From: Gammaproteobacteria bacterium
GTDB lineage: Bacteria; Pseudomonadota; Gammaproteobacteria; Eutrophobiales; Eutrophobiaceae
Direction: 5' to 3'
DNA: 64,000 bases
Assembly (NCBI GenBank): GCA_038922795.1
Contig: JBCKWI010000003.1
Location: forward strand, 5,118-69,117
Shown here: positions 275-55,038 of the stretch, one piece after another
How positions within the stretch are numbered: the first letter of the stretch is position 1
Layout: each line of letters opens with the position of its first letter
Translations under genes and position numbers: made by a program
The notes under the pieces: model-generated
Databases searched by the model: none
What the model saw: the letters and a program-made list of their open reading frames with translations, nothing else
What the model was told of the DNA's origin: nothing

Positions 275-309
275 CACCCTCTCCCTCCGGGAGAGGGTTG
301 GGGTGAGGG
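275..309. repeat. REP-like nested palindrome (family A: CCCTCTCCC-TCCGGGAG-AGGG plus GGGGTGAGGG) in the icd-aceK intergenic region
   Basis: The inverted repeat ccctctccc/gggagaggg is seen directly. The same unit recurs at about 10407, 47041 and 61793. Confidence 0.8.
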
Positions 310-380
310 AAAAAAGTTTGTTTATCTTGCAACAATTGAATTTTCATCAGTAATGATCACTTAGTTCAGGCAACGCCAAT

Positions 381-2329: not shown

Positions 2330-4135
2330 ATGTTTGATTACCGGATAATGAAAATGGCAAAAAAAGAAAAAACATCAAAACAGAACCTCACGGTCAGTCT
2401 GGACAAGAATGATCTGGACGAAATATTCGAAGAAGTCGAAAAAAGTCAACTACGAAAAAAGAATAAAAAGAAAACCGAAAAACAGGAACCGTTGGAGAAA
2501 CAGCTTTGGAAAGCGGCGGGTAAACTGCGCAAGAACATTGACGCCGCCGAATACAAGCATATTGTGCTTGGCCTGATCTTTCTGAAATACATCTCCGACG
2601 CCTTCGAAGAATTATTCAACAAGCTGCAAGCGGGTAAAGGTGACTATGCCGGGGCCGACCCGGAAGACAAGGATGAGTACAAGGCCGAGAATGTCTTCTT
2701 CGTACCACCCACAGCGCGTTGGTCATTTCTGTTATCCAAAGCCAAACAACCTGAGATTGGCAAGTTTGTCGATGAGGCGATGGATGCCATTGAAAAGGAA
2801 AACGCCTCATTAAAAGGAGTGCTGCCAAAAGTCTTTGCACGGCAAAACCTCGATCCCGCCAGTTTGGGTGGATTAATCGATCTGGTCGGTAATATTGCGT
2901 TAGGTGATGCCAAGGCCAGAAGTGCCGATGTACTCGGCCATGTGTTTGAATATTTCCTCGGGGAATTTGCACTGGCTGAAGGCAAACAAGGCGGACAATT
3001 CTATACACCGCGCAGTATTGTTGAATTACTGGTGGAAATGCTGGGACCCTACAAAGGCCGGGTGTTCGATCCCTGTTGCGGCTCCGGCGGTATGTTCGTG
3101 CAATCGGAAAAATTCGTGGCCGAACATCAGGGCAAGATCAATGACATCTCCATCTACGGACAGGAAAGCAACCAGACCACATGGCGGCTGTGCAAAATGA
3201 ACCTTGCCATTCGTGGTCTTGACAGTTCACAGGTGAAATGGAACAACGAGGGATCATTTTTAAATGATGGTCACAAGGATTTGAAAGCCGATTTTGTCAT
3301 TGCCAATCCACCGTTTAATGACAGCGACTGGAGCGGTGAACTCCTGCGCACCGATGGCCGCTGGCAATATGGTGCGCCACCCACGGGCAATGCCAACTTT
3401 GCCTGGTTGCAACATTTTGTTTATCACCTCTCCCCCACCGGCCAGGCCGGTGTAGTGCTGGCAAAAGGGGCTTTAACCTCTAAAACCTCCGGCGAAGGTG
3501 AAATCAGAAGGCGTTTAATCGAAGAAGGCAACCTGATTGATTGCATTGTTAATCTCCCCGCCAAACTGTTTTTAAATACCCAGATCCCGGCAGCGTTGTG
3601 GTTCATGAGCCGTAATCGCAAAGGCACCTCTCCCGCCGGAAGAGGCGGGGGTGAGGGATTCCGTAACCGCAGCAATGAAATCCTCTTTATCGATGCCCGC
3701 AATATGGGTCATTTGATCAATCGCCGTACCCGTGAGCTTTCCCATGAAGATACCAAACACATTGCCAACACCTACCATACATGGAGAAACAACCACTCTC
3801 CCTCCAAAACGCATCGTCATTCCGGCCAAGCGAAGCGTGAGCCGGAATCCAGTAAAAATACCAACACACATCGTCATTCCGCACTTGATGCGGAATCCAG
3901 TCAATTAATCTATCAAGACATTCCCGGCTTCTGCGCTTCAGTCTCCCTGGATCGTGTAAAAGAACTGGACTACGTATTAACTCCAGGCCGTTATGTGGGG
4001 TTACCGGATAATGACGATGATTTTAATTTCAAGGAACGATTCACATCACTCAAAGCCGAGTTTGAACAGCAGTTAAAAGATGAAGCGAAACTCAATAAAA
4101 TTATTGCTGAGAATCTAGCGAGGGTGAAGGTGTGA
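2330..4135 (+). CDS. hsdM: type I restriction-modification system, DNA methyltransferase subunit M
   Basis: It has the HsdM N-terminal domain ([32 protein letters not shown]), the SAM motif ([11 protein letters not shown]) and the catalytic NPPF ([11 protein letters not shown]). The real start is probably ATG 2348 or 2354 (MKMAKK/MAKK). It carries an in-frame 123-nt palindromic repeat insertion near the 3' end. Confidence 0.92.
3813..3901. repeat. Two small palindromic units (catcgtcattccggc...gccggaatccagt and catcgtcattccgca...tgcggaatccagt) inserted in frame inside hsdM
   Basis: Direct reading. Tandem units have ATTCCGG..CCGGAAT / ATTCCGCA..TGCGGAAT stems. Other HsdM proteins run ...YHTWR...YxDIPGFC... 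without the about 41 aa [41 protein letters not shown]. Confidence 0.7.
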
Positions 4136-5268
4136 GTGGGTGGAGAGAATATAAACTTATAGAGATTACTGAGCCAGTAAAGGAAACATACTTACCAACT
4201 GCTTCAGAAGAACTAGATTACATTGGGCTAGAGCATATCGGACAAGAAAGTTTACGATTAATAGCTATAGGTAAATCATCAGATGTGACAAGTAATAAAT
4301 TTCTATTTAGAGAGAACGATGTTCTTTTTGGGAAACTTCGACCTTATTTTAGAAAAATAATTAAGGCAAAATATTTTGGTATATGCTCAACAGATATTTG
4401 GGTTTTCAGGGCAAAAAAAGGATTTTCACAAGATTTTTTATTTTATTTTCTTGCAAACTGGGATTTTGTTGATACTGCTAATGGCGGTGAAGGTGGATCT
4501 CGAATGCCCAGAGCAGATTGGAACTTCCTTAAATCTACATTATGGAATGTTCCAGATCATACTGAGCAAAAAGCCATCGCATCAGTCCTCAGCAGTCTGG
4601 ATGACAAAATCGACCTGCTTCACCGCCAGAATAAAACTCTCGAAGCCATGGCTGAAACCCTGTTCAGACAATGGTTCATCGAAGAAGCAAGAGAAGATTG
4701 GCAGGAAAAACCTCTAAGCAAAATTGCAAATTTTTTGAATGGTCTTGCTTGTCAAAAATATCCTCCAAAAAACGAAATTGATAAATTACCCGTATTAAAA
4801 ATAAAAGAACTAAGCAGTGGTATATCTGATTCATCTGATTGGGCAACAACTGACGTAAAACCTGAATATGTTATTGAGAATAGCGATGTGATTTTTGCGT
4901 GGTCAGCATCCCTTATGGTTAAGATTTGGGATGGAGATAAATGTATCTTGAACCAACATTTATTTAAAGTTAGCTCTACTGAATATCCAAAATGGTTTTA
5001 TTATTGGTGGTGCAAACATCATCTGGAAGAATTCATATCGATATCTGCGAGTCATGCAACAACTATGGGCCATATCAAGCGAGGTGACTTGGATGTGGCT
5101 ATGGTGCTGATTCCAAAGGAAAGCGAGTTCAAATCTATCAATTCACAAATGGAACCATTACTCGATAAGCAAATAGAAAACTCTAAACAAATTCAAATCC
5201 TCGAAAAACTCCGCGATACATTATTACCTAAACTCATGAGCGGCGAAATTAGAGTCAAGATAAATTAA
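4132..5268 (+). CDS. hsdS: type I R-M specificity subunit S
   Basis: Its ATG overlaps the hsdM stop (ATGA). Two AT-rich target-recognition domains flank a GC-richer conserved central region (...[37 protein letters not shown]...), and a C-terminal conserved helix ([17 protein letters not shown]) is present. Confidence 0.88.
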
Positions 5269-5269
5269 C

Positions 5270-6769
5270 ATGGACGGGATATTCATAAATAAAATCAATA
5301 TTAAAAATTACAAATGTTTTGTTGATCAGGATATCAATTTCAGCGTTCCTGACGGTAAAACACTTGGTAGCGGCCTGAACATTTTAATTGGCGAGAACGG
5401 AGTTGGTAAAACAGCTGTGCTTGAAGGATTCAACATGTTGACACAGACATATTTTACTCTTGAAAATCGATTGGATATTCGAGATTTCAACGATTTCAAA
5501 AAAGAAATTCAAATCACGGCCCAGACTGAAGAATTTAGGTGCAAGATGCCTTATCCGGGCAATTATTTTATTTCCAATGGCCTTGAGATAACAGCAAAAA
5601 ATAGAGACAGAAAAGCATCTGGGAAATTATTGTCCTCTTCATTCTCTACATCTTCTTCGTTCATGCCCACAACAGAGTATTACTTCAACTCAAAAGGTGA
5701 ACCATCAAAGAACCTGATTCCCCTTTATACAATGTATAAGGATGACACCATTGAGGGAGACGGAATAAACATTTTTTATTTTGATAAGAACAGAACAAGA
5801 CAATTGTCATCTGGCACTTATAAAACAACGTTTGAACGTATATGCGACGACTTGAATTGGAGATTTAATAAAGAATTAACTCCTGAATTAATAGATACAG
5901 TGCTTGAAAATATATCAGGCGAATATTTTAAAACTGTCAGAGAGAACGCCCAAAAAGGAATTGGACAAAAAATAGCTGATGAATTAGCTAGCTTTTTTAA
6001 TTCAGAATCATACAAAAACCTAAAAATAGAACTTCTAAATCTTTTACACCCTTACACAGATGCGTTTTTTGCAGTAAGAGAGGAATCTGACTTAAAGCAA
6101 ATAAAAACAAAAGATCTTGGTTCAGGAGTCGAGATGATCCTTACTCTTTTACTGCTTAAAAATATAGCAAGCCAATCAAAAGGCAGTATTATTTTCCTAA
6201 TTGATGAACCTGAATTGCATCTCCATCCAAAAGCACAAGATAAATTAATGGAGTTATTGTTGGATGAGTCGATTGATAAACAAATTATATTAAGTTCTCA
6301 TTCGCCTTACATTTTCAGGAATTGTCTTGATAAAGCTGGCTCTATCATAGTAATGAATAAAGCAGCTAATTTTTCTATAAATTTTCATTATGCTCAGAAA
6401 AATGAATGGGGGCTATTCCCTTGGAGTCCCTCTTGGGGAGAAATTAATTTCTTGGCATTGAATTTGCCAACAGTTGAATTTCATAATGAATTATACGGTA
6501 GGTTACAAGAAATATCGGGACAGAATAGAATAGAAAACTTTGATAAGTGGTTGAATGAAAAATTTGGAATCCCATTAATTTCTTCATGGATAAGACTTAA
6601 TAATGGCGTAGCTGGAAATACTGATACCGTATCTCTTCAAACATATATTAGGCATTCTATACATCATCCTGAAAATAATTTAAATAAACCATTTACAGTT
6701 GATGAATTATCTCAATCTATTCAGAAGATGATCCATGTCTTAAGAAAGCTCAATGACCAAAATCACTGA
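5270..6769 (+). CDS. ABC/OLD-like AAA ATPase (AAA_15/AAA_21-type) embedded in the hsd operon; putative anti-phage/Abi accessory protein
   Basis: Walker A is GENGVGKT and Walker B plus D-loop is IIFLIDEPELHLHPKAQ, with H-loop LSSHSP. It is AT-rich. It starts 1 nt after the hsdS stop and overlaps the hsdR start by 17 nt. No TOPRIM or HNH domain was recognised in the C-terminal about 150 aa. Confidence 0.7.
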   Translation: MDGIFINKINIKNYKCFVDQDINFSVPDGKTLGSGLNILIGENGVGKTAVLEGFNMLTQTYFTLENRLDIRDFNDFKKEIQITAQTEEFRCKMPYPGNYFISNGLEITAKNRDRKASGKLLSSSFSTSSSFMPTTEYYFNSKGEPSKNLIPLYTMYKDDTIEGDGINIFYFDKNRTRQLSSGTYKTTFERICDDLNWRFNKELTPELIDTVLENISGEYFKTVRENAQKGIGQKIADELASFFNSESYKNLKIELLNLLHPYTDAFFAVREESDLKQIKTKDLGSGVEMILTLLLLKNIASQSKGSIIFLIDEPELHLHPKAQDKLMELLLDESIDKQIILSSHSPYIFRNCLDKAGSIIVMNKAANFSINFHYAQKNEWGLFPWSPSWGEINFLALNLPTVEFHNELYGRLQEISGQNRIENFDKWLNEKFGIPLISSWIRLNNGVAGNTDTVSLQTYIRHSIHHPENNLNKPFTVDELSQSIQKMIHVLRKLNDQNH

Positions 6770-9700
6770 AAATACTATCGAAGACTTTGCCATCGAGTTA
6801 TTCGAAGCTCTCGGTTATGACTATGTGTATGCACCGGATATCGCGCCTGATGGTGATGAGCCGGAGCGCAAAATTTACGAAGACGTATTACTGATTGGCA
6901 GATTGCAGAACGCCATTCGCCGGATTAACCCTTCCATATCGGGTGATGCCCAACTAGAGGCATTAAAAGAAATTCAACGTATTCATTCCCCGGAATTATT
7001 AACCAACAATGAGACTTTTCATCGGCTTCTGACTGAAGGCGTGAATATCAGCTATCAGCAGGATGGCAACCAACGCGGCGATCTGGTGTGGCTGGTTGAT
7101 TTCAAAAATCCGGAAAACAATGAATTTTTGGTGGCGAATCAATTCACGGTCATTGAAAACGGCCAGAACAAACGCCCGGACATCATCCTGTTTGTGAATG
7201 GTATTCCTTTGGTGGTGATCGAGTTAAAGAATGCCGCCGATGAAAATACAACTATCCTTTCCGCCTTCAAACAATTGCAAACCTATAAGGAAACGATCTC
7301 CAGCCTGTTTACCTACAATGGCTTGATGGTGATTTCTGATGGGCTGGAAGCCAAGGCAGGTTCATTGTCTGCGGGCTTCAGCCGGTTTATGACCTGGAAA
7401 TCAGCCGATGGGAAGGCCGAAGCCTCGCCCTTGATCAGCCAACTGGAAACCCTAATCAAGGGCATGTTGAACAAGCACACCTTGCTGGATTTGATTCGTC
7501 ATTTTATCGTTTTTGAAAAGTCCAAAAAGGAAGATCTCAAAACCGGTGTCACCACCATTTCCACCGTCAAAAAGCTGGCTGCTTATCATCAATACTATGC
7601 CGTGAACCGTGCAGTAGAATCAACTTTGCGTGCCGCTGGTTATATTTGTGAAGATACTGGCGGAAAGAACATCATGGAGTCGCCGGAAAGTTATGGTTTA
7701 CCGGGGGTAAAAGCCCAACCCGCAGGCGACAAGAAAGGTGGTGTGGTCTGGCATACACAAGGCAGTGGCAAGTCTCTATCCATGGTGTTTTATACCGGCA
7801 AGATTGTATTGATGATGGATAACCCCACCGTGGTGATGATTACCGACCGTAATGATCTGGATGATCAGCTTTTCGATACCTTTGCCGCCTCCGCGCAATT
7901 ATTAAGACAGGAACCGAAACAGGTTGAAGATCGGAAACAACTCAAGGAATTATTAAAAGTGGCCTCCGGCGGCGTGATCTTTACCACCATCCAGAAATTC
8001 CAGCCTGAAGAAGGCAATATCTACGAAGAACTCTCTGCACGTAAAAACATAGTGGTTATCGCGGATGAAGCACACCGCACCCAATATGGTTTCAAGGCAA
8101 AGACCATCGACGAGAAAAATAAGCAGGGTGATGTGGTTGGCAAGAAGATTGTTTATGGTTTTGCCAAGTACATGCGCGATGCCCTGCCCAATGCGACTTA
8201 TTTAGGGTTTACCGGCACTCCGATTGAAAAAACGGATATCAACACGCCCGCCGTGTTCGGCAATTACATTGATATTTACGATATTGCCCAGGCGGTGGAA
8301 GACGGCGCCACGGTACGCATTTATTATGAAAGCCGGTTGGCCAAGGTCAATCTCAGTGAGGAAGGTAAAAAGCTGATCGCTACGCTGGATGAAGAACTGG
8401 ATCAGGATGAGCTCACCGAGACCCAGAAGGCCAAGTCGAAATGGACGCAACTTGAGGCATTGGTTGGCAGTGAAAACCGCATCAAAAAGATTGCTCAGGA
8501 TATCGTCACTCACTTTGAACAACGTCAGGCCGTGTTTGAAGGCAAAGTTATGATCGTCGCTATGTCGCGCAGGATTGCCGTGGATTTGTATGAAGCGATT
8601 ATCAAGCTGAAACCTGACTGGCATTCTGATGATTTGAGTAAAGGGAAAATCAAGGTAGTGATGACAGCGGCTTCATCTGATGGCCCGAAGATGGCCAAAC
8701 ATCACACCACCAAAGAGCAACGCAAGGCACTGGCCGAGCGCATGAAGGCCAATGATGATGAGTTAAAGCTGGTGATTGTGCGGGATATGTGGCTGACGGG
8801 GTTTGACGCGCCAAGTATGCACACGCTTTATATCGACAAACCCATGAAAGGACACAACCTGATGCAGGCGATTGCACGGGTCAACCGTGTTTACATAGAC
8901 AAACCCGGTGGGTTGGTTGTGGATTATTTAGGAATCGCGGCTGATCTTAAAGAGGCTTTGTCATTTTATTCCGATGCAGGTGGCAAGGGTGATCCAACTA
9001 TTCTTCAGGAACAGGCAGTGCAATTGATGCTGGAAAAACTGGAAGTGGTTGCAGGTATGTATCATGGTTTTCCTTATGAGGAATATTTTGAGGCAGATAC
9101 TTCCAGAAAGCTCTCGCTGATTCTTGCCGCAGAGGAACATATTCTAGGTATTGAAGATGGCAAGAAGCGTTATATCAATGAAGTCACTGCGTTGTCGCAG
9201 GCATTTGCAATTGCCATTCCCCATGCACAAGCCATGGACGTTAAGGATGAAGTGGCATTCTTTCAGGCTGTTAAAGCGCGATTGGTGAAGTTTGACAGTA
9301 CCGGATCAGGAAAAACAGATGAAGCGATAGAAACCACCATTCGCCAGGTGATTGATCAGGCATTGGTGTCTGAACAGGTCATTGATGTGTTTGATGCTGC
9401 CGGTATCAAAAAGCCGGACATTTCGATTCTTTCAGAAGAATTCCTGTTGGAATTGAAAGGAATGAAACACAAAAATATCGCGCTGGAGGTGTTAAAGAAA
9501 CTGCTCAATGATGAAATCAGGGCGCGGGCCAAGAAGAATCTGGTAAAGAGCAAATCCTTAATGGAAATGCTGGAAACCGCAATCAAAAAATACCATAACA
9601 AGATATTGACGGCTGCGGAAGTAATCAATGAGCTTATTATACTGAGCAAGGAAATTGTAAAGATGGACAGCGAAGCCGCGGCTCTGGGCCTGTCTGATTT

Positions 9701-9986
9701 TGAATATGCTTTTTATACTGCTGTTGCCGATAATGACAGCGCTAGAGAATTAATGGCGGTAGCCAAACTCAGGGAATTGGCGGTTGTGCTCACAGAAAGA
9801 GTCCGGCAAAACGCTTCAATTGACTGGACAATTAAAGAAAGCGTGAAGGCCAAACTGAAAGTAATTGTAAAGAGAACTCTACGGCAATACGGTTATCCGC
9901 CTGATATGCAAAAACTCGCGACTGAAACTGTACTAAAACAAGCGGAAATGATTGCGGATGAACTGGCACATACAGAATCAATCTAG
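6753..9986 (+). CDS. hsdR: type I restriction enzyme R subunit (helicase/endonuclease)
   Basis: 1077 aa. It has the HsdR N-terminal nuclease region (MTKITENTIEDFAIELFEALGYDY...), DEAD-box helicase motifs (VVWHTQGSGKS; VVIADEAHRTQ; LGFTGTPI) and a C-terminal HsdR domain. Confidence 0.93.
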   Translation: MTKITENTIEDFAIELFEALGYDYVYAPDIAPDGDEPERKIYEDVLLIGRLQNAIRRINPSISGDAQLEALKEIQRIHSPELLTNNETFHRLLTEGVNISYQQDGNQRGDLVWLVDFKNPENNEFLVANQFTVIENGQNKRPDIILFVNGIPLVVIELKNAADENTTILSAFKQLQTYKETISSLFTYNGLMVISDGLEAKAGSLSAGFSRFMTWKSADGKAEASPLISQLETLIKGMLNKHTLLDLIRHFIVFEKSKKEDLKTGVTTISTVKKLAAYHQYYAVNRAVESTLRAAGYICEDTGGKNIMESPESYGLPGVKAQPAGDKKGGVVWHTQGSGKSLSMVFYTGKIVLMMDNPTVVMITDRNDLDDQLFDTFAASAQLLRQEPKQVEDRKQLKELLKVASGGVIFTTIQKFQPEEGNIYEELSARKNIVVIADEAHRTQYGFKAKTIDEKNKQGDVVGKKIVYGFAKYMRDALPNATYLGFTGTPIEKTDINTPAVFGNYIDIYDIAQAVEDGATVRIYYESRLAKVNLSEEGKKLIATLDEELDQDELTETQKAKSKWTQLEALVGSENRIKKIAQDIVTHFEQRQAVFEGKVMIVAMSRRIAVDLYEAIIKLKPDWHSDDLSKGKIKVVMTAASSDGPKMAKHHTTKEQRKALAERMKANDDELKLVIVRDMWLTGFDAPSMHTLYIDKPMKGHNLMQAIARVNRVYIDKPGGLVVDYLGIAADLKEALSFYSDAGGKGDPTILQEQAVQLMLEKLEVVAGMYHGFPYEEYFEADTSRKLSLILAAEEHILGIEDGKKRYINEVTALSQAFAIAIPHAQAMDVKDEVAFFQAVKARLVKFDSTGSGKTDEAIETTIRQVIDQALVSEQVIDVFDAAGIKKPDISILSEEFLLELKGMKHKNIALEVLKKLLNDEIRARAKKNLVKSKSLMEMLETAIKKYHNKILTAAEVINELIILSKEIVKMDSEAAALGLSDFEYAFYTAVADNDSARELMAVAKLRELAVVLTERVRQNASIDWTIKESVKAKLKVIVKRTLRQYGYPPDMQKLATETVLKQAEMIADELAHTESI

Positions 9987-10307: not shown

Positions 10308-10404
10308 GCAGAACATTTAGTGTCCCCTTCGGGGATGGTGGAAACCCCTCGCCTTCAGGCGAAGCAAGCTAGTGCGACATGTTCGCGTAGCGAACCTGAG
10401 CGTA

Positions 10405-10560
10405 AAACCCTCTCCCCTCGGGAGAGGGCACGATTACAGGATGTAATCGGTAGAGTCGAGCCGGGAGCGGAGACCGAGGGTGAGGGAAAAGCGATCAGGA
10501 TCATGCTGAGGTACAGCTTCCCTCATCCCCTGCCCTTCTCCCGGAGGGAGAAGGGGGTGT
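10405..10560. repeat. Composite REP cluster (family A units interleaved with a family B unit gattacaggatgtaatcggtagagtcgagccgggagcggagaccgag)
   Basis: Direct reading. ccctctcccctcgggagaggg, gggtgaggg and ccctcatcccc...ctcccggagggagaaggggg are present. The predicted ORF 10320-10640 lies wholly in repeats and is spurious. Confidence 0.8.
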
Positions 10561-10677
10561 TAGCCAGGTTTGAAGCCACCGGCTTGCAGCCGGTGGTAGT
10601 TCACTGGTTACGCAAAAAACCCCTGTCACATTTGATATGACAGAGGTGTGAGGAGAAGGTGAAATTTCCGGTCAGGT

Positions 10678-11952
10678 TTATTCAATATCGAAATCCTTTT
10701 TATAACCTTTTTTATTATCCACCAGCAGTTCATCTGTAAAAGGTGTTTTACCGAGACTGATCCTGAAGGATGGTACGGTAATATCTTCACAGTTGGGTTG
10801 TTTTGCTGACGGCATGGCTGCCCTGGCCTTTTCTATCAGGTCCTGATGATACCATTTCAACTCGGCAATAAATTCTTCCCTGATAACGGGTGTTACCGGA
10901 ATCACGTTCATGCCGAATTTCAGCCGTTGTATCAGATTTGGCATGACCGGCTCCAGGTTCAGTTTGTCGTTAACTGAAGTCTCTTTGCCTATGCAATTCA
11001 CCAGGTCATCAACCACATCTATGGCATGTGCCCAGGCTTTGGACTCAACACCTTCCTTGATGTAGATTTTCAAAAGCAGTTTGCTCCAGTGATTAAAAAG
11101 AAAATCCCTGGCAAACTCCGGCATGGTGATATTGCCAAGATGTTGCGTGATCTCGTTTCTGATGATGCGATTGGCAATGATAAAATAATTCTTGTCCTTG
11201 ATAATGCCGGAATTGTGCAGTGTGTGGTTTTGCTGATTTTCGGCTGCGTCTGTCTGCAGGTAAGTGTTAGAGCCCGACCTGGTCTGCGTGCTGATCTTTT
11301 TCTCACTCAGTAATGTATCAATGTCCACATAGGCAGCGGGCAGACTTGAGGTCACATATTTCTCAAACAACTTGAACAGGATGAGTTTTATTTCAATCCC
11401 GGATTCAATATTCTGACACGCCTCCTGAAAAGCGGTGCAGACTGTTTCCGGCCGGACTGGGTTCAGGCGTTTTTCTACTTTCACGCTGCTGAGTAATTCA
11501 CCCATGCGCTGGTCCAGGGTAAACAATGCCTCGTGGCAATCATGCCGGACCTTTCCAACCATAGCATTTAATGCGATGGATTCCTCAATATCAATTTCCT
11601 TGTCAGTGCTTTTTTCCGTTACAGGTCCATCACTGTTTTCATTCGTGCGAATAGAACTGTTAAACAGTTTTGAAAAATTCTCTTTGAAGTCAGCTTCAAT
11701 GGATGTCCTTTTCAGGCGTACTTCGCGCATGGCATTGAAGTAATAATGATGTTCAGACGGGCCGCTTTTCTGCACCAGATCAAACAGGATATCGTCTGCC
11801 ATATTCAGCATGACGGACAATCCATGTGACAGGCGATCTGTCATCAAGTCGTGGCATTCATTCAGTAGTTCCAGTGAACCTGTATTTAATGTATTCATAT
11901 GGGTTTTGTAGCTCACCATTCTGACGATGTTTTCAGAATTCTTATCATTCAT
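10678..11952 (-). CDS. hypothetical protein (AT-rich; N-terminus faintly DUF1631-like)
   Basis: 424-aa ORF with no internal stops and AT-rich codon usage distinct from its neighbours. The family assignment is tentative. Confidence 0.55.
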   Translation of the reverse strand: MNDKNSENIVRMVSYKTHMNTLNTGSLELLNECHDLMTDRLSHGLSVMLNMADDILFDLVQKSGPSEHHYYFNAMREVRLKRTSIEADFKENFSKLFNSSIRTNENSDGPVTEKSTDKEIDIEESIALNAMVGKVRHDCHEALFTLDQRMGELLSSVKVEKRLNPVRPETVCTAFQEACQNIESGIEIKLILFKLFEKYVTSSLPAAYVDIDTLLSEKKISTQTRSGSNTYLQTDAAENQQNHTLHNSGIIKDKNYFIIANRIIRNEITQHLGNITMPEFARDFLFNHWSKLLLKIYIKEGVESKAWAHAIDVVDDLVNCIGKETSVNDKLNLEPVMPNLIQRLKFGMNVIPVTPVIREEFIAELKWYHQDLIEKARAAMPSAKQPNCEDITVPSFRISLGKTPFTDELLVDNKKGYKKDFDIE

Positions 11953-12335
11953 GGCAATGACTTTCCCTCGTTAATAATTATGTCCGCTATTTGCGGGCGT
12001 TGTTTCAGTCTTAGAGCATTAATAGTGGATACATCCACTGTCTTCAAGGGGGAATACTCTTTACTGCTAGGGAAATCACATACGGATTTCAATTATTTGT
12101 GAGTGATATCACAATCGTGTATCAAGATCCGGGCGGTAGATGGTGGGCGGTGTACCAATGCAACATCATCAATGCAGGCAATGGCTACAACTGTCTTTTT
12201 CGTCGTTAAAAGCAGACGTCATAACAGTTATCCGGTATGGCCTGACATTTATAACCTATTGATTAATATTGATTATCAAGACAGGTATAAACCTTGCTTG
12301 ACATTATTCATCCGTGACTAAAGCAAGGAAATACC

Positions 12336-15402: not shown

Positions 15403-16716
15403 TTAATGTTGTAACTTGAGATGTATGATGGCCGCCCCTACTGTGAGGAACGAACCGGTAATTACTATGCGATCCTGCGGTGCTACAATTTCGCGGACAC
15501 TGTTCAGGGCATCAGCGACTGAATTGTAACAGCTTATATTCTGGTTTAAACCCATTCCTGCCAGTACTTCACTCAGCATATGACAATCAGCACCTCGCGG
15601 ATTTTCCAGGGTGACAATATGCCAGAAATCCGCAACCTCGGACATCTCCCGGAAAATGGCATGATGATCCTTGTCTTTCAGCATGCCGATCAATACATGC
15701 GACTTGCCCTGCAGCGGTAACGCCTTCAGGTTCCGCACCAGAAGTGCAGCGGACTGGCAGTTATGCGCCACATCCAGTATCAACTGCGCCTTGTCCGGGA
15801 CAATCTGGAAGCGCCCGGCCAGGTTGAACTCCTGCAACCCTTTCCGGATGGCTTGAATGTCCACGGGAAAGCGGTCCGATAATACTGTTAATGCCATCAA
15901 CACACCAGCAGCATTCGCCATCTGCGTCGGGTTATACAACGAGGGCCGCGGCAAGTCAGTATAACTTACGGAACCCCACTGCCATTGCCAGGTATCGCTG
16001 ATGACCTTATGCCGGTAATCCCGGCCTGGTATATACAGTATTGTTCCCAGTTGACCGGCATGATCAAATATTGCAGCCGGGGGATTCGGGTCAGAACAAA
16101 CTGCAGGCGCATGACTGCGCATGATACCCGCCTTTTCCCTGCCGATGGATTCGCGGTCCGGTCCCAGCCAGTTTTGATGGTCAAGATCGATTGCGGTGAT
16201 CAATGCCACATCCGCATCTACACAATTAACAGCATCCAGGCGTCCGCCCAACCCGACTTCCAGTACGGCGATACCAATCCCTGCATGCTTGAAGATATCC
16301 AGTGCAGCCAGTGTGCCAAATTCGAAATACGTCAGTGAGATATCACCACGGGCACGGTCGATCCGGTCAAAAGACGCGCACAGCATCTCATCTGTCACCT
16401 CTACACCATTCAGACAGATGCGTTCGTTATAACGGATAAGGTGCGGTGAAGTATAACTCCCCGTGTTATAACCCGCATTGGTCAGTATGCCTTTCAACAT
16501 ATTGACGCTTGATCCCTTGCCGTTGGTACCGGCGACACTGATAACAGTATAATCCGGTTGCAGCAATCCCATCCTTTCCGCAACGGCCATGCATCGATCC
16601 AGTCCGAGGTCAATCGATGTGAAATGCAGGCCCTCCTGCCAAGTGAGCCACTCCTGCAAGGTATTAAAACGCATGGTTCCAACGGCGGGGATAATATTTG
16701 GTTTACTGGCTTGCAT
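15403..16716 (-). CDS. folC: bifunctional folylpolyglutamate synthase / dihydrofolate synthase
   Basis: Mur-ligase-family motifs (VAGTNGKGS P-loop; DVAHNCQSA). 437 aa. Confidence 0.9.
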   Translation of the reverse strand: MQASKPNIIPAVGTMRFNTLQEWLTWQEGLHFTSIDLGLDRCMAVAERMGLLQPDYTVISVAGTNGKGSSVNMLKGILTNAGYNTGSYTSPHLIRYNERICLNGVEVTDEMLCASFDRIDRARGDISLTYFEFGTLAALDIFKHAGIGIAVLEVGLGGRLDAVNCVDADVALITAIDLDHQNWLGPDRESIGREKAGIMRSHAPAVCSDPNPPAAIFDHAGQLGTILYIPGRDYRHKVISDTWQWQWGSVSYTDLPRPSLYNPTQMANAAGVLMALTVLSDRFPVDIQAIRKGLQEFNLAGRFQIVPDKAQLILDVAHNCQSAALLVRNLKALPLQGKSHVLIGMLKDKDHHAIFREMSEVADFWHIVTLENPRGADCHMLSEVLAGMGLNQNISCYNSVADALNSVREIVAPQDRIVITGSFLTVGAAIIHLKLQH

Positions 16717-16725
16717 GTTTGCAGT

Positions 16726-17598
16726 TTATTGTGCGGTAACAGGTTCGGGACGGTGTGTCAGTTTGGCCAGCAAGGAAGCGACTCGATCGCGCATTTCGCG
16801 CCGGTCTACAATCATATCAATAACACCATGTTCCAGCAGGAATTCACTGCGCTGAAACCCTTCAGGCAAGGTTTCCCTGACTGTCTGTTCAATCACACGC
16901 GGTCCGGCAAAACCTATCAGGGCGCCTGGTTCAGCAAGATTGATATCACCCAGAGTAGCCAGGCTCGCCGAGACACCGCCCATGGTCGGGTCAGTCATGA
17001 CGGATATATAAGGTATATTCTTTTCACTCAATAACCCCAGTGCCGCACTGGTCTTGGCCATCTGCATCAGTGACAGGATAGCTTCCTGCATCCTGGCGCC
17101 ACCACTCGCGGAAAAACACACCAGCGGAATATGATGCTCAATGGCAGCTTCAACTGCGCGGACAAAGCGTTCACCAACCACGGAACCCATGGATCCGCCC
17201 ATGAATTCAAATTCAAAGGCACAGACCACCAGCGGGATGTCCTTCAACTGCCCCATCATGACGATCAATGCATCCTGTTCGCCTGTTTGTTTCTGGGCCT
17301 GACTCAACCGGTCTTTGTATTTTTTGGTGTCACGGAATTTCAACTTGTCTACCGGTGTGATCCCGGCGCCTATCTCAACGCGTGGTTCCGGATCAAGAAA
17401 ATATTCCAGCCTGGCACGCGCCCGTATACGCATGTGATACGAACATTTTGGACAGACTTCCAGATTACGGTTGAGTTCTGCCCGGTACAATACGGCATTA
17501 CATTTAACACATTTGCTCCACACACCCTCAGGCACCGTCCTCTTCGAGGTAGTGGTCGTCTTAATGCGGGATGGAATAAGCTTTCTGAACCAACTCAT
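16726..17598 (-). CDS. accD: acetyl-CoA carboxylase carboxyltransferase beta subunit
   Basis: N-terminal Zn-ribbon ([26 protein letters not shown]) and carboxyltransferase domain ([11 protein letters not shown]). Confidence 0.95.
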
Positions 17599-18435: not shown

Positions 18436-18569
18436 AATGTTTTGCCTGTCGTTCCAACGATAAAGAAGATATTAAAAGGAATACCAGAGATCAGATAACC
18501 AGATGATTACTTGAGATTAATACTAAGGAACCTCTGATTAAGTGTCTTTGCCGTCATGCTGGTGAAAAC

Positions 18570-18898
18570 GACCTACACGAAGTAGGAAATGCCGCAAGAC
18601 GCCTATAGGGATATAGGCGGTAGAGCAACGCACGACTCCAGGGATGGATGAGGTAGAATCGCGTCGGGAACAGCGATCGAGGAGCCAAAGCCGAGGACAC
18701 GACGACATGGATGTAGGAGGTACGATTACAGGGAAGTAATCGGTAGAGTCGAGCCGGGAGCGGAGACCGAGAGTAACGTCGGGAACAGTTACCGAGGAAG
18801 TCCATAGCGGCCAGCATCCAGTAAATAATTGTTTTGACTGGGTTCTGGCCTGCGCCAGAATGACAGCTTGTAGCCACTGGTGACTTGATCAGAACATC
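18570..18898. repeat. Mosaic cluster of short palindromic units (family B) ending in the family C terminal module agaatgacag...cttgatcagaac, lying inside the trpB-trpA intercistronic space
   Basis: Direct reading. The same units (gtagagtcgagccgggagcggagaccgag; catggatgtaggaggtacgattacagggaagtaatcgg) are seen at 10430, 28130, 55610 and 56830. Confidence 0.8.
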
Positions 18899-18909
18899 CC
18901 TAAGTTTTC

Positions 18910-19107
18910 TCATGATGGCGGTATTTGCCTGAGTTTCAGTTCAAGCAATTCAATCGCCATATCGGGTATTTCTTCATGATTTTTTGATTCATTCGATGTC
19001 AGCCAGTGGTCTACCATTTCGCGTTTGACACTGACCAGTTCGGCGACCTGTCTGCGATCCAGTTTATAGTCTGCTATCAGTTCTATTAATCTTTCCCGGT
19101 TATTCAT
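18910..19107 (-). CDS. small putative HTH protein (65 aa) between trpB and trpA
   Basis: The ORF begins 7 nt after the trpB stop on the same strand. A helix-turn-helix-like segment (RQVAELVSVKREMVDHWL) is present. It could be a repeat-associated artefact. Confidence 0.35.
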   Translation of the reverse strand: MNNRERLIELIADYKLDRRQVAELVSVKREMVDHWLTSNESKNHEEIPDMAIELLELKLRQIPPS

Positions 19108-27022: not shown

Positions 27023-28099
27023 CTAACTGAGTGCCGCAAGAACCGCATCACCCATCTCAGAGGTCGATACACTGCGCATACCCGGCGTACAGATGTCCGC
27101 CGTTCTTACCCCATCTTTCAAAACTTTTCTCACCGCAGTTTCAACACGTGCCGCTTGTTCCGGTTGGTTGAGCGAATAACGCAACATCATTGCCACAGAC
27201 AAAATAGTGGCGAGCGGGTTGGCCTTGTTCTGTCCGGCGATATCCGGTGCAGAACCATGTATGGGCTCATAGATACCCTGCCCGGTCTCATTGATCGAGG
27301 CAGAAGGCAACATACCAATCGAACCTGTCAGCATGGATGCCAGATCAGACAGGATATCGCCAAACATGTTCTCGGTAACAATAACATCAAACTGTTTTGG
27401 TTGACGCACCAGTTGCATGGCGGCGTTATCAACGTACATATGCTGAAGTGAGACATCCGGATAATCTGCAGCCACTTTTGTTACCACTTCCCGCCAGAGT
27501 TCCGTCGCCTCAAGCACGTTCGCCTTGTCGACAGAACACACCTTGCGGTTGCGTTTTTGAGCAATAGTAAATGCCACACGGGCAATCCGTTCGATCTCGG
27601 ATTCACTGTAGACCAGCGTATTAAACCCTTCTCTCTGTCCGTCTTCTCTTGTCTTGATCCCGCGCGGTTGACCAAAATAAATACCCCCGGTCAGCTCACG
27701 CACAATCATGATATCCAGACCGGAGACAACCTCCGGTTTTAATGTCGACGCATCCGCCAGTTCCTCGTAAAGCAATGCCGGCCTGAGATTCGCATACAAA
27801 CCCAGACCAGCGCGGATAGCCAGCAGACCACGTTCCGGCCTGAGGGCCCGTTCGATGTTTTCCCATTTCGGGCCACCGACTGCTCCAAGTAATATTGCAT
27901 CACTGGCTTTTGCTTTTTCCAAAGTTTCAGCAGGCAAAGGTGAACCCGCGGCATCCACAGCACTGCCACCAATAAGACCATGTTCGATCGCAAGATCAAG
28001 ATCATGCCTCTGGATTAATGCATGCAGTATTTTTTCAGCCTCGGCAACGATCTCAGGGCCGATACCATCACCGGGCAGAATCAGGATTTTTTTGCTCAC
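27023..28099 (-). CDS. leuB: 3-isopropylmalate dehydrogenase
   Basis: [10 protein letters not shown] and the IDH/IMDH signature (NLFGDILSD). The ORF track begins at a TTG (28126). GTG 28099 ([12 protein letters not shown]) is the more likely start. Confidence 0.93.
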
Positions 28100-28129
28100 C
28101 GGGTATTTCCACTTCCAGAAAAACAATTA

Positions 28130-28690
28130 ATCTACCGCCGCTCGACAACTTGTTCCAGACGTTGTCCCGGTCTCTGTTCCAGACGCGACTCTCGACCGCT
28201 GTTCCCGACGCGGTTCTACCTCCCCCGTCCATGGGGTCGTACCGATTCCATCCATGGAATCGTACCACCTCGACAATTGCTCCAGGCATTGTTCTACCTC
28301 CCACGTCCATGTGGTCGTACTTCCCTGTAGGCGTCCCGCGCAGTCGCTATCAGCATCCCGCTTCATGCGACACTAATACATCCCTGTATGTCGTCCTGCA
28401 CCCGCGGAATACGACCGCCATGGATGGCGGAAGTGTCGAAAATGTAAGGAACAATTTTTCGACCCGTACCTCCTGTACATAAATGTCAGGAACAATTTTT
28501 CGACCATTACGTCCATGTAAATCGCCGCTCCTCGGCTTTGGCTTCCTGCGTCGCCCTACCTCCTGCATCCTTGCAGTCGTGTGCAGTCGCTGTCAGCATC
28601 CTGCTTTACGCGACACTAATACATCCCTGTATGTCGTCCTGCACCTGCGGCATACCGTACTTCCTGTACATAAAAAGGCTGCACAGCATA
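28130..28690. repeat. About 560-bp mosaic array of short palindromic units (family B), including a pair of 68-bp direct repeats (28338-28405 and 28583-28650)
   Basis: Direct reading. Units such as gtcgtaccgattccatccatggaatcgtacc, tccctgtaggcgtccc, tacctcctgcatccttgcagtcgtg and aggaacaatttttcgacc x2 are present. There are no uniform spacers. Confidence 0.85.
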
Positions 28691-45258: not shown

Positions 45259-46508
45259 CAGAGACCATTGCCACGCTCCCGCTGTTTGCGGGTTATGGTA
45301 TTGAACTCGAATATATTATTGTTGATCGCGATCATCACAATGTTCTGCCTGTTACCGATCAGTTACTCAAAGCCGCCACAGGTGACTATGTCAGTGATTA
45401 TGAGGAAGGATCCATTGCCTGGTCGAATGAACTGGTACTGCATGTCATTGAATTAAAGACCAACGGGCCGGTCAGCATGCTTACCGGTTTACCGGATCAT
45501 TTTTTATCCAATATCCACCGTATCAACAAAATCCTTGAAAACATGAACGGCAGGCTGATGCCAGCAGCTATGCATCCCTGGATGGATCCTTTTAAAGAAA
45601 CCCGATTGTGGCCGCATGAGTCTTCCGAGATCTATGAAAGCTACAATCGTATCTTCAATTGCCAGGGACATGGCTGGTCGAACCTGCAAAGCATGCATAT
45701 CAATCTGCCGTTTGCAGATGATCATGAGTTTGCGCTTTTACATGCTGCCATCCGTATATTGTTACCGATTATGCCGGCACTCGCCGCGAGTTCACCGATC
45801 ATGGATGGTCAATATACCGGCCTGCTGGATACGCGGCTGGAAGTCTACCGGCGCAATGCCGAAAAAATCCCCAGCATCACCGGCCTGGTGATTCCGGAAC
45901 CGGTGCATCATTATCTCGATTATCAAAACATGATCCTGCAGCCCATGTATGCTGCCATTGCCCCGCATGATCCGGAGGGCATTTTGCAATATGAATGGTT
46001 GAATTCCAGGGGAGCCATTGCCCGCTTCGACCGTAACGCCATTGAGATACGCGTGCTGGATACACAGGAGACGCCGCAGGCCGATATCGCCATTGCCGCC
46101 ATGATCATATCCATCCTCAAGAAGCTGGCGGCTGCGATATGGTCTGATGTTACAGAACAAAACCAGCTCGACACAGAAACTCTGGCAGAGCTCTTGATGT
46201 TGACCATCAAAGAAGGTGAACTGGCTACAATTAAAAATAAGTCCTATCTTGAATTATTCGGTTTTCCGGATCGCAAAGGCCTGGTACAGGAACTCTGGCA
46301 ACACTTGCTTGAATCAATATCAGCAGATGATACGGATTTAATCCCGGAACTCAGAAAAACAATAGAATACATCATTCATTGCGGGCCACTGGCACGCCGC
46401 ATCAAGCTGTCGATCGGCAAGGAGTGCAAACGTTCTCACATGCAAGAGTCTTATCGCCAGCTCTGCGATTGTTTAAATAACGGACAGCTCTTTGAAGGCA
46501 TCGACTAG
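45255..46508 (+). CDS. GCS2/YbdK-type carboxylate-amine ligase (glutamate-cysteine-ligase family 2)
   Basis: The N-terminal GYGIELEYIIVD pattern is characteristic of GCS2 (GxExEhxxVD). About 417 aa. Start overlaps the upstream stop (ATGA). Confidence 0.7.
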   Translation: MTETIATLPLFAGYGIELEYIIVDRDHHNVLPVTDQLLKAATGDYVSDYEEGSIAWSNELVLHVIELKTNGPVSMLTGLPDHFLSNIHRINKILENMNGRLMPAAMHPWMDPFKETRLWPHESSEIYESYNRIFNCQGHGWSNLQSMHINLPFADDHEFALLHAAIRILLPIMPALAASSPIMDGQYTGLLDTRLEVYRRNAEKIPSITGLVIPEPVHHYLDYQNMILQPMYAAIAPHDPEGILQYEWLNSRGAIARFDRNAIEIRVLDTQETPQADIAIAAMIISILKKLAAAIWSDVTEQNQLDTETLAELLMLTIKEGELATIKNKSYLELFGFPDRKGLVQELWQHLLESISADDTDLIPELRKTIEYIIHCGPLARRIKLSIGKECKRSHMQESYRQLCDCLNNGQLFEGID

Positions 46509-52092: not shown

Positions 52093-52489
52093 GCACCCGG
52101 CATGATGCGTGACCCGCTACTGTGGTCTTCAAGTTTGTATATTTAATGTATACAACCACACAATAATCATTAATGTTTTTTAAAATTTTTAAACTGGTCT
52201 ATATTAACCAAAAAAGTGGTTGTAACTGCTTATAAACAACCAAGACCTGGTCTAGTTTTATTTCAAATCTAAAAAGCACGTCTTAATCAATTAACCGATG
52301 GCAATAATAATCCATCTTTTACACATGACTTGAGTCAAAAAATCACTCTGCATACTGAATTATTTAAAATTAGTTTGATCTAGATCAAATAATTCCCGAT
52401 CTCTGATTTGTCTACCTGTCACATGGCATAATAGTTGCGGCCAAATGCTTTGAATCTATGAGTTAAACATCTAAGGAAGCTCTGAATAA

Positions 52490-52660
52490 GGTGTCATTTC
52501 GGGCAAAGCGAGAAATCTGTAGTTAAAAATGTCAAACAAAATCAAATAACCGCGAGATTTCTCGACCACTGTTCCAGACGTGGTTCTACCGCCTGCTTCC
52601 ATGCAGGCGTCCCTACGGTCGAAATGACAATAACAACTTAATCAGAGGTTCTCTGAATAA
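52490..52660. repeat. Composite palindromic repeat cluster (family C gtcatttcg-gcaaagcgagaaatctg / cgcgagatttctcgacc plus a family B unit plus the terminal module gaaatgacaa...cttaatcagag)
   Basis: Direct reading. Related copies at 54917-55020 and 60583-60648. Confidence 0.8.
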
Positions 52661-55020: not shown

Positions 55021-55038
55021 CCTTAATATCAGCCGGTT

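What the first reader, a model, noticed from the sequence alone, without database searches (positions are those of the whole stretch)
3813..3901. Small palindromic repeat pair inserted in frame inside hsdM
Two tandem about 40-bp palindromic units sit between the conserved HsdM segments ...YHTWR and [11 protein letters not shown]. They add about 41 residues (123 nt, a multiple of 3) without breaking the frame.

In-frame survival of intragenic palindromic elements is known from Rickettsia RPEs and Neisseria Correia/dRS3 elements. Here it implies either selection for frame-preserving insertions or a tolerant surface loop in the methyltransferase.
Basis: partly seen in the sequence, partly recalled or inferred. 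Interest (0 to 1): 0.6.

Follow-up and report, generated by a model that had tools for sequence, protein, structure and literature searches.

The report
In-frame REP hairpin repeats inside hsdM
Two copies of a widespread selfish bacterial hairpin repeat (a CGTC-type REP) sit in frame in a disordered linker of a restriction-system methylase gene, at a spot where many related genes have independently picked up other such repeats; this is a known kind of event, here unusually recurrent.

Summary
Window 3815-3852 and 3872-3900 are two same-strand hairpin units, CGTC + 8-bp stem starting AT + loop + CCA tail. They lie in frame in hsdM (2330-4135) between TYHTWR and YQDIPGF. They fit the published CGTC-tagged REP class, the class of Neisseria dRS3 and Rickettsia RPE-4/-6.

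The closest HsdM relatives carry only a 6-residue loop here, so the query has gained 36 residues (108 nt), not 41. The segment is predicted to be disordered coil.

- A second in-frame REP of another family lies at 3628-3657, with intergenic copies in the same window.
- These two loops are the only indel hot spots in this HsdM clade. About half of 120 close homologues carry in-frame hairpin inserts there, of about a dozen families and on unrelated branches.
- A Methylotenera hsdM that is 71% identical carries a 29/29-identical REP core at the same site, with unrelated flanks.
- A second gene in the window (46492-47367) also holds an in-frame REP cluster.

Best reading: selfish REP insertions filtered by selection, so that only in-frame, stop-free copies in permissive loops survive. 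This is a new member of a known kind. The recurrent hot spot, and hairpin-flanked DUF559 endonuclease cassettes inserted in frame in HsdM and HsdR of related loci, are the more interesting by-products.

The parts
2330..4135 (+). hsdM, the type I restriction-modification methyltransferase subunit. It is an intact ORF of 601 aa, or 593 aa from the ATG at 2354.
   Evidence: Pfam finds HsdM_N plus N6_Mtase. The best solved relative is 3KHK at E=2.3e-128. Foldseek also ranks 3KHK first. The stop codon overlaps the hsdS start at 4132.
3785..3910 (+). Hot-spot-1 loop, residues R486-I527. It is 42 residues against 6 in the minimal form.
   Evidence: Alignment of 120 homologues. AF2 predicts coil with pLDDT below 50 at 492-501 and 510-524, between helix 472-486 and strand 535-539.
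3815..3852 (+). CGTC-tagged REP unit 1: CGTC head, 8-bp stem ATTCCGGC/GCCGGAAT, 14-nt loop containing GCGAAGC, CCA(G) tail. It encodes [12 protein letters not shown].
   Evidence: DNA hairpin of -11 kcal/mol, z = -4.1. The same stem is the commonest variant in other genomes.
3872..3900 (+). CGTC-tagged REP unit 2: CGTC head, 8-bp stem ATTCCGCA/TGCGGAAT, 5-nt loop CTTGA, CCA(G) tail. It encodes RHSALDAES.
   Evidence: Hairpin of -8.2 kcal/mol, z = -3.7. It is 29/29 identical to the REP at the same site of Methylotenera hsdM L204. The inner stem pairs covary across variants.
3804..3814 (+). 5' flank of unit 1 (CCAAAACGCAT). It is repeated at 3861-3871 (CCAACACACAT) in front of unit 2.
   Evidence: Direct repeat D2, 21 nt at 90% including the head. 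Such flanks are not conserved in the family at large. This points to a local 57-nt in-frame duplication.
3861..3871 (+). 5' flank of unit 2, the second copy of the shared flank.
3794..3805 (+). Possible remnant of a family-A left arm (CACTCTCCCTCC). This is speculative.
   Evidence: It resembles CTCTCCCTCC of the family-A copies at 279 and 61873. Other homologues carry PSP...GEG family-A inserts at this position. This is inference only.
3628..3657 (+). Second in-frame REP, at hot spot 2. It is a family-A element, CTCTCCCGCCGGAAGAGGCGGGGGTGAGGG, encoding [10 protein letters not shown].
   Evidence: The pattern has 3 matches in the window (279-309, 3628-3657, 61873-61903) against 0 expected. It is absent from the nearest relatives and from 3KHK. 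pLDDT is below 50 at residues 436-441.
4132..5268 (+). hsdS, given as context. It is translationally coupled to hsdM.
   Evidence: Pfam Methylase_S.
6753..9986 (+). hsdR, given as context. It is intact and has no insert at the site used by DUF559 cassettes in related loci.
   Evidence: Pfam HSDR_N, SWI2_SNF2 and T1RH-like_C. Translation.

Best explanation
The two units are copies of a CGTC-tagged REP (repetitive extragenic palindrome), a class of short selfish hairpin repeats spread over many bacterial phyla. One unit landed in the short linker that joins the last helix of the HsdM catalytic domain to the C-terminal strand and helix. That linker is 6 residues in the ancestral form.

The second unit most likely arose by an in-frame 57-nt local duplication, followed by divergence or conversion of the inner stem and loop.

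The copies persist because three conditions hold:
- Their total length keeps the reading frame.
- The frame used has no stop codon.
- The linker is a disordered, insertion-tolerant loop, so the methylase and the coupled hsdS and hsdR genes stay intact.

The same filter explains a second REP of another family at 3628-3657. It also explains why these two loops are the only indel hot spots in an otherwise highly conserved, horizontally mobile HsdM clade.

Shown: the identity of the repeats, their absence from the nearest relatives, recurrent independent gains at the two loops, predicted disorder, and intact ORFs.

Inferred: neutrality, the duplication step, and the insertion mechanism. No transposase is known for CGTC REPs.
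For: - Anatomy matches the published CGTC-REP definition: CGTC head, 8-9 bp stem beginning AT, 4-5 nt loop, CCA tail.
- The inner stem pairs covary and 100% of cells are paired.
- 59 of 120 sequences have a 6-residue loop. The others carry about a dozen different hairpin-derived peptides at the same place. DNA of 10 of them folds as hairpins.
- In a neighbour-joining tree with the loops masked, the query sits among minimal-loop sequences. At least 19 insert/no-insert changes are needed on that tree.
- The Methylotenera L204 REP core is 29/29 identical although the genes are 71% identical and the flanks differ.
- Only two internal positions in the alignment collect insertions of 5 residues or more.
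- AF2 gives coil with pLDDT below 50 at both inserts.
- Family-A copies at 279-309 and 61873-61903 match the copy in hsdM.
- A second gene in the window, FGase-like at 46492-47367, has about 60 extra in-frame residues made of REPs.
- Di Nocera et al. 2013 list intragenic REPs, including one in an N-6 DNA methylase.
Against: - No other exact CGTC-headed copy of this subfamily lies in the 64-kb window. There are only 5 TGTC-headed relatives. Acquisition in this genome is therefore not shown, and the insert could have arrived with the gene.
- Unit 1 has a 14-nt loop, outside the published 4-5 nt.
- Head-to-tail pairs are described as negligible in CGTC families.
- Tolerance of the protein to the insert is inferred from ORF integrity and a moderate-quality model (mean pLDDT 69). 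It has not been measured.
- The tree has no support values, and recombination could mimic independent gains.
Confidence: 0.8

Rival explanations
1. Targeted integration. The HsdM linker, and a loop in HsdR, are preferred landing sites for hairpin elements and their endonuclease-bearing parents. The recurrence would then reflect homing rather than only a tolerance filter.
For: - About a dozen element families plus DUF559 cassettes all sit in the same 6-residue loop.
- In L135 and L201 the hairpin family in the hsdM loop is the same family that flanks a DUF559 cassette inserted in frame in the neighbouring hsdR.
- The minimal-loop DNA often reads CG(G/A)AATCC(A)GA, which resembles the REP 3' arm and tail GGAATCCAG.
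Against: - Insert positions vary by several codons within the loop, and the frames differ: RHS..., VIP....
- The elements belong to unrelated families that are unlikely to share a target.
- The rest of the protein is 78-86% conserved, so selection alone can confine the survivors to two loops.
- An unrelated FGase-like gene in the window also carries in-frame REPs.
Confidence: 0.15
2. The pair is two independent REP insertions rather than one insertion followed by a local duplication.
For: - The stems differ by compensatory changes (GC/GC against CA/TG) and the loops differ (14 against 5 nt). The two units look like members of two subfamilies that both exist elsewhere.
- REPs are known to attract further insertions. 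Nested inserts are seen in L001.
Against: - The 11-nt 5' flanks (9 of 11 identical) and the 3' T-AA are shared by the two units but are not conserved in 140 other copies.
- The period is exactly 19 codons.
- Head-to-tail dimers are reported as negligible for CGTC REPs.
Confidence: 0.3
3. Exaptation. The inserts are kept because they do something. They might act as RNA hairpins that tune the stability or translation of the hsdM-hsdS message. They might instead act as variable surface peptides that help the methylase escape phage anti-restriction proteins.
For: - The hairpin is maintained by compensatory changes between variants at the same site.
- The REP core is identical in genes that are 71% identical.
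- REPs are reported to act as RNA elements downstream of genes.
Against: - Covariation and identity are equally expected if each copy is a fresh member of a homogeneous genomic family.
- There is no terminator-like site and no Rfam match.
- Half of the close homologues work with the 6-residue loop.
- The inserted peptides are unrelated to one another and are predicted to be disordered.
Confidence: 0.05
4. Native variable linker that is palindromic by chance, or an assembly artefact of a metagenome-assembled genome.
For: The source is an uncultured gammaproteobacterial MAG contig. Repeats can mislead assemblers.
Against: - Two matches against 0.02 expected.
- The identical core occurs in intergenic DNA of many genomes.
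- The coding sequence is continuous and in frame on both sides, with conserved HsdM motifs.
- An NCBI record holds exactly this protein.
Confidence: 0.02

Closest known systems
CGTC-tagged REPs (Di Nocera, De Gregorio and Rocco 2013, BMC Genomics 14:522; PMC3733652)
   Same: CGTC head, 8-bp stem beginning AT, 5-nt loop in unit 2, CCA tail. The class occurs in many phyla, intragenic in-frame copies are documented, and no dedicated transposase is known. The window holds no RAYT.
   Different: Unit 1 has a 14-nt loop. The pair is head-to-tail, whereas head-to-head dimers predominate in the published families. The host is an uncultured gammaproteobacterium, whereas most described CGTC families are alphaproteobacterial.
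Rickettsia palindromic elements (RPE; Ogata et al. 2000, cited from my own knowledge). RPE-4/-6 are classed as CGTC-4/-1 in PMC3733652.
   Same: Short palindromic repeats inserted in frame in conserved proteins. They are thought to sit in surface loops and to be compatible with function.
   Different: RPE-1 is about 100-150 bp. RPEs are confined to Rickettsia and form different sequence families. Here the same loop of one protein family is hit repeatedly in many lineages.
Neisseria dRS3 / RS3 repeats (ATTCCC-N8-GGGAAT)
   Same: Same superfamily, CGTC-1 in PMC3733652. The head GTCATTCC and the tail GGAATCCAG are shared.
   Different: The query stems are ATTCCGGC and ATTCCGCA, not ATTCCCGC. True dRS3-like cores (CGTCATTCCCGCGCAGGCGGGAATCCAG) occur at the same hot spots of other homologues (L132, L134, L002), not in the query.
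REPINs and GTAG-type REPs mobilised by RAYT transposases
   Same: Short hairpin repeats dispersed in genomes. The window has GTAG-type arrays (family C), and locus L001 has a RAYT flanked by GTAG REPs inside the R-M operon.
   Different: The hsdM units carry a CGTC tag rather than GTAG. They are in direct rather than inverted orientation. No RAYT lies in the window.
Neisseria Correia elements and other MITEs
   Same: Small non-autonomous repeats that can lie inside genes.
   Different: Correia elements are about 100-155 bp, with 26-bp terminal inverted repeats and a TA duplication. None of that is present here.

Membership tests
CGTC-tagged REP | CGTC tetranucleotide at one end of the hairpin | tested here: met
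   Both units start with CGTC, at 3815 and 3872.
CGTC-tagged REP | Stem of 8-9 bp whose first two pairs are A-T | tested here: met
   ATTCCGGC/GCCGGAAT and ATTCCGCA/TGCGGAAT, each 8 perfect pairs.
CGTC-tagged REP | Loop of 4-5 nt | tested here: inconclusive
   Unit 2 has CTTGA (5 nt), which meets the criterion. Unit 1 has 14 nt, which does not. Longer loops occur in alphaproteobacterial copies found.
CGTC-tagged REP | Short unpaired 3' tail, consensus CCA | tested here: met
   Both units end in CCAGT.
CGTC-tagged REP | Multi-copy and dispersed, mostly intergenic, in the host genome | tested here: inconclusive
   No further exact copy lies in the 64-kb window. Five TGTC-headed relatives lie in intergenic DNA (52492, 54917, 54979, 60581, 60623). 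The rest of the genome could not be retrieved. In other genomes there are at least 143 copies in 120 loci.
REPIN / RAYT-mobilised REP | Two REPs in inverted orientation, GTAG tag, and a cognate RAYT gene flanked by the same REPs | tested here: not met
   The units are in direct orientation with a CGTC tag. There is no RAYT in the window by tblastn. The RAYT in L001 is flanked by GTAG REPs of another sequence.
Neisseria dRS3 | ATTCCC-N8-GGGAAT core | tested here: not met
   The cores are ATTCCGGC... and ATTCCGCA....
Correia element / MITE | Element of about 100-155 bp with long terminal inverted repeats and a target-site duplication | tested here: not met
   The units are 29-38 nt simple hairpins. 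No TIR or duplication was found.
Rickettsia palindromic elements | Membership of one of the RPE sequence families of Rickettsia | not tested
   No RPE consensus was compared. The link is only through the shared CGTC class.
Type I R-M HsdM | HsdM_N plus the N6_Mtase domain with SAM-binding and NPPF motifs, next to hsdS and hsdR | tested here: met
   Pfam. DPCCGSGG and IANPPFN are present in the translation. hsdS and hsdR are adjacent.

The most novel reading that the evidence does not exclude
The HsdM linker and a pre-Walker-A loop of HsdR may be preferred integration sites for a class of hairpin-bounded mobile cassettes. The autonomous form would encode a DUF559/Vsr-like endonuclease. The hairpin-only derivatives would be the 'REPs' seen in these loops. 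These would be in-frame, non-splicing elements that colonise type I restriction genes without inactivating them. The CGTC units in the query would be one more passenger at the same landing pad.
Probability: 0.12. Interest if true: 0.7.

Novelty: new member of a known kind. Interest (0 to 1): 0.4.

Why it matters
In-frame REPs have been known since the Rickettsia RPEs, so this single case adds little by itself.

What is useful is the comparative picture. One highly conserved, horizontally mobile HsdM clade shows two loops that have absorbed about a dozen unrelated hairpin families, and even a whole endonuclease domain, in many lineages.

This has three uses:
- It gives a natural map of insertion-tolerant sites in a type I methylase, which could guide tagging or engineering.
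- It warns annotators that 30-140-residue "inserts" in R-M proteins are often repeat DNA rather than new domains.
- It offers a clean system for asking whether REP-type elements are merely filtered by selection or are targeted.

The association of family-A hairpins with both ends of DUF559 genes hints at a mobilising enzyme for a very common repeat family that has none assigned.

Tried and rejected
- I tried to identify the source genome so that copies could be counted genome-wide. The exact proteins are in NCBI on a 73,303-bp contig, but the contig could not be fetched. FtsH homologues only place it as an uncultured Gammaproteobacteria MAG lineage.
It gives taxonomic breadth, not abundance.
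- I looked for a RAYT or DUF559 gene in the window and found none.
- I looked for a terminator or a known RNA family at the units and found none.
- P0001 looked like the closest homologue, but it is a chimeric, duplicated ORF and was dropped.
- I considered that the Y1_Tnp gene in L001 might mobilise the CGTC units. Its flanking REPs are GTAG-type with an unrelated sequence.
- A full-text literature search (PubMed Central open-access papers and bioRxiv preprints) for REPs in hsdM found no dedicated description. There is only a table entry for an Opitutus N-6 DNA methylase, and I could not verify its position.
- The estimate that 30 of 143 copies lie in long open frames is an upper bound, because GC-rich genomes have many spurious open frames. 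I do not rely on it.
Full report
**1. What is there**

The window carries a type I restriction-modification operon:
- hsdM at 2330-4135
- hsdS at 4132-5268
- an AAA_15 ATPase at 5270-6769
- hsdR at 6753-9986

Inside hsdM, between the conserved segments ...ANTYHTWR and [11 protein letters not shown], lie two hairpin units on the coding strand:
- Unit 1, 3815-3852: CGTC-ATTCCGGC-caagcgaagcgtga-GCCGGAAT-CCAG
- Unit 2, 3872-3900: CGTC-ATTCCGCA-cttga-TGCGGAAT-CCAG

A head/tail pattern finds exactly these two copies against 0.02 expected. As single-stranded DNA they fold at -11.0 and -8.2 kcal/mol, z = -4.1 and -3.7. Both are read in the same frame, [12 protein letters not shown] and RHSALDAES. The period is 57 nt, which is 19 codons.

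**2. What the units are**

Their anatomy matches point by point the CGTC-tagged REP class of Di Nocera et al. 2013 (PMC3733652). That definition is:
- a CGTC head, sometimes TGTC
- a stem of 8-9 bp whose first pairs are A-T
- a loop of 4-5 nt
- a CCA tail
- no dedicated transposase
- occasional intragenic copies

That paper places Neisseria dRS3 and Rickettsia RPE-4/-6 in the same class. Unit 2 fits completely. Unit 1 fits except for its 14-nt loop.

The loci come from Proteobacteria, Chloroflexota, Desulfobacterota, Patescibacteria and others, and hold 143 copies. The commonest copy, CGTCATTCCGGCGAAAGCCGGAATCCAG, has the same stem as unit 1. Many copies form inverted doublets.

Among the 29-nt CTTGA-loop variants, the two inner stem pairs change in a compensatory way and every cell is paired. 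The six outer pairs were fixed by the search pattern, so only the inner two are informative.

**3. The insertion is lineage-specific**

In 120 best HsdM homologues (76-86% identical), 59 have a 6-residue loop after TYHxW, either RTGEGx or RNPDGN. The query has 42 residues, a net gain of 36 residues or 108 nt.

In a neighbour-joining tree built with the variable loops masked, the query groups with minimal-loop sequences P0095, P0019, P0044 and P0039. DNA of P0095 and P0044 confirms minimal loops at both variable sites.

It is not met. No homologue shares the 42-residue loop.

A group of Methylotenera genes carries RHS(V/A)LD(T/A)ESS at the same place. In L204 the REP core is 29/29 identical to unit 2, although the genes are only 71% identical at the DNA level and the sequence on both sides of the core is unrelated. 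L205 differs by a compensatory pair (GCA/TGC to GTA/TAC).

This pattern is what independent arrivals of members of a homogeneous repeat family would give. It is not what a segment inherited with the gene would give.

**4. A hot spot, and a second one**

Relative to a minimal reference, only two internal positions collect insertions of 5 residues or more.

*Hot spot 1*
- This is the loop discussed above.
- 60 of the 120 homologues carry inserts here, of about a dozen kinds.
- Two kinds are the two reading frames of the dRS3-like GTCATTCCCGCGCAGGCGGGAATCCAG, giving VIPAQAGIQ and RHSRAGGNP.
- Other kinds are PRHCEEQSDAAIQ, PSPxGRGxGEG, VGADCIRP...AHAMRP, DAQGSANVAG, FPSSGGV...GRRGG and CHSELVSES...EMLKQVQHD.
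- A whole DUF559 endonuclease domain also occurs here.
- On the tree at least 19 gain/loss steps are needed for presence or absence, and 46 for insert type.

*Hot spot 2*
- This lies between IPAxLWF and ILFIDA.
- The loop is minimal, 14-17 residues, in 64 sequences and longer in the rest. The longer loops again carry REP-like peptides.

*Other samples*
- In a more distant metagenomic sample of 80 loci, about 10 have inserts at hot spot 1, and all are in frame.
- For the ten inserts examined at the DNA level, each folds as a hairpin.
- In L135 and L201 further copies of the same family lie elsewhere in the locus.

*Published precedent*
- The Di Nocera supplement lists an Opitutus terrae N-6 DNA methylase of 563 aa with a REP dimer at residues 444-496.
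- This is probably the same site, but I could not check it.

**5. The query uses both hot spots**

At 3628-3657 the gene contains CTCTCCCGCCGGAAGAGGCGGGGGTGAGGG, encoding [11 protein letters not shown] pattern for this "family A" element finds three copies in the window against none expected. The other two, at 279-309 and 61873-61903, are intergenic. The nearest relatives and the archaeal structure 3KHK lack it.

The window as a whole is rich in repeats:
- family A
- a TGTC-headed family B, TGTCATTTCGAGCGAAGCGAGAAATCT, at 52492, 54979, 60581 and 60623, plus a closer relative at 54917
- large arrays of a GTAG-type family C

No further exact CGTC-headed copy of the hsdM subfamily is present in the 64 kb. 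I therefore cannot say whether units 1 and 2 were acquired in this genome or came in with the gene.

**6. Structural context**

An AlphaFold2 model built with 83 sequences has mean pLDDT 69, which is moderate:
- Residues 487-530 are coil, with pLDDT below 50 at 492-501 and 510-524.
- They lie between helix 472-486 and strand 535-539.
- A long C-terminal helix follows at 567-598.
- The family-A insert, residues 436-441, is also below 50.

The fold matches HsdM structures, with 3KHK best. In 3KHK the insert falls between chain residues 500 and 505.

From general knowledge of type I methylases, the C-terminal helix packs against the HsdS coiled coil. A linker in front of it is therefore a plausible permissive site. 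That last point is inference.

The ORF is intact, the catalytic motifs are present, and the hsdM stop overlaps the hsdS start. There is no terminator-like site and no Rfam match at the units.

**7. Origin of the pair**

The two units share 11-nt 5' flanks (9 of 11 identical) and a 3' T-AA. In 140 other copies of the family the flanks are not conserved. Together with the exact 19-codon period, this favours one insertion followed by a local in-frame duplication.

The different inner stem pairs and loops argue the other way, or require later conversion. Head-to-tail dimers are described as negligible for CGTC REPs, which also fits a local duplication better than a canonical dimer.

I put duplication at about 0.6-0.7.

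A short stretch at 3794-3805, CACTCTCCCTCC, looks like a leftover family-A arm. This hints at an older insert overwritten by the present one, and it is speculative.

**8. Mechanism and rivals**

The best-supported reading is selfish repeat DNA filtered by selection. Insertions anywhere else in this very conserved protein, or in a frame with a stop, are lost. In-frame copies in two disordered loops survive.

For unit 2, four of the six frames are open, as read from the sequence.

Support from the same window comes from the FGase-family gene at 46492-47367. It carries about 60 extra in-frame residues made of family A with a nested family-C element. The solved homologue 2ODF aligns on both sides of the insert.

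The main rival is targeting of these loops. The coincidence of many element families at one 6-residue loop keeps it alive, as does the resemblance of minimal-loop DNA (CGRAATCCAGA) to the REP tail. However, insert positions and frames vary, and the element families are unrelated.

Functional exaptation, chance and assembly artefact are all unlikely, for the reasons given under rivals.

**9. Comparison and novelty**

This is a new member of a known kind: intragenic, in-frame REPs of the CGTC class. It is not a REPIN, because the units are in direct orientation, carry no GTAG tag, and no RAYT is present. It is not dRS3 in the strict sense, because the stem differs. It is not a Correia element.

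I found no description in the library searched of the recurrent two-loop hot spot in HsdM. It does not, however, change the category.

**10. By-product worth following**

DUF559/Vsr-like endonuclease cassettes bounded on both sides by short hairpins are inserted in frame in two proteins:
- In HsdM hot spot 1: P0004, P0007, P0017, P0085, and independently L195 with a divergent DUF559 and different hairpins.
- In HsdR, between STLRATGY and the Walker A motif: L201 and L135.

In both of those HsdR loci, the hairpin family that flanks the cassette is the family found as a hairpin-only insert in the neighbouring hsdM.

Most close DUF559 homologues are small stand-alone ORFs. At least 26 of 120 include hairpin-encoded peptides at their ends, SPSGRGQGEG upstream and LSQRERE downstream.

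This suggests that family-A-type hairpins are the ends of DUF559 cassettes. I did not test mobility.

Noticed in passing
window 46492-47367 (insert about 47020-47150): An FGase-family gene carries about 60 extra in-frame residues. They are encoded by a composite repeat cluster: two family-A hairpins with a nested GTAG-type family-C element. The solved homologue 2ODF aligns on both sides of the insert.
   Followed up: yes
L201 about 16160-16760; L135 about 11825-12300; L195 1631-2056; proteins P0004, P0007, P0017, P0085: DUF559/Vsr-like endonuclease cassettes flanked by short hairpins are inserted in frame in HsdM hot spot 1 and in HsdR, between STLRATGY and the Walker A motif. In L201 and L135 the flanking hairpin family equals the hairpin-only insert in the neighbouring hsdM. 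Of 120 stand-alone DUF559 ORFs, 26 include hairpin-encoded peptides at their ends. This may be a mobile cassette with MITE-like derivatives.
   Followed up: partly
window 276-321, 10406-10560, 18550-18800, 28130-28660, 47042-47139, 52472-52630, 54917-55025, 55641-55693, 56840-57200, 60578-60652, 61792-61908: The window is packed with at least three repeat families: family A (CCCTCTCCC..GGGAGAGGG+GGTGAGGG), TGTC-headed family B, and GTAG-type family-C arrays. ORFs 10320-10640, 18554-18913, 28018-28482 and 57238-57579 run through these arrays, have no Pfam match, and are probably spurious.
   Followed up: partly
L001 7100-7840: A RAYT (Y1 transposase) gene flanked on both sides by GTAG-type REPs (GTAGGTTGGGC...GCCCAAC) sits inside a Methylotenera type I R-M operon, between hsdS-associated genes and hsdR. 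It is a REPtron unrelated to the CGTC units.
   Followed up: partly
L001 4519-4626 and the L001 hot-spot-2 loop: There are nested insertions. The CGTC REP at hot spot 1 has a 23-nt hairpin inserted in its own loop. The family-A-like element at hot spot 2 is split by about 60 nt. REPs appear to attract further inserts.
   Followed up: no
window 5270-6769 (and 4000-7000): An AAA_15/AAA_21 ATPase gene lies between hsdS and hsdR, in a stretch of 34-37% GC against 48% for the window. Related loci carry other cargo at this position: KwaAB, Abi_C, DUF3644, PIN/HTH and AbiEii.
   Followed up: no
window 2372-2476: HsdM has a 35-residue Lys/Glu-rich N-terminal segment (TSKQNL...KKNKKKT) after MAKKEK that most homologues lack. 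It is not palindromic. The model gives a low-confidence helix.
   Followed up: partly
minimal-loop homologues, e.g. L173, L145, L166: DNA encoding the minimal loop WRNPDG often reads TGGCG(G/A)AATCCAGACGG, which contains the REP 3' arm and tail motif GGAATCCAG. This may be coincidence or microhomology relevant to insertion.
   Followed up: no
P0001: The top-scoring HsdM hit is a 639-aa ORF with an internal duplication of about 135 residues of the catalytic domain. It is probably an assembly or gene-call chimera.
   Followed up: yes
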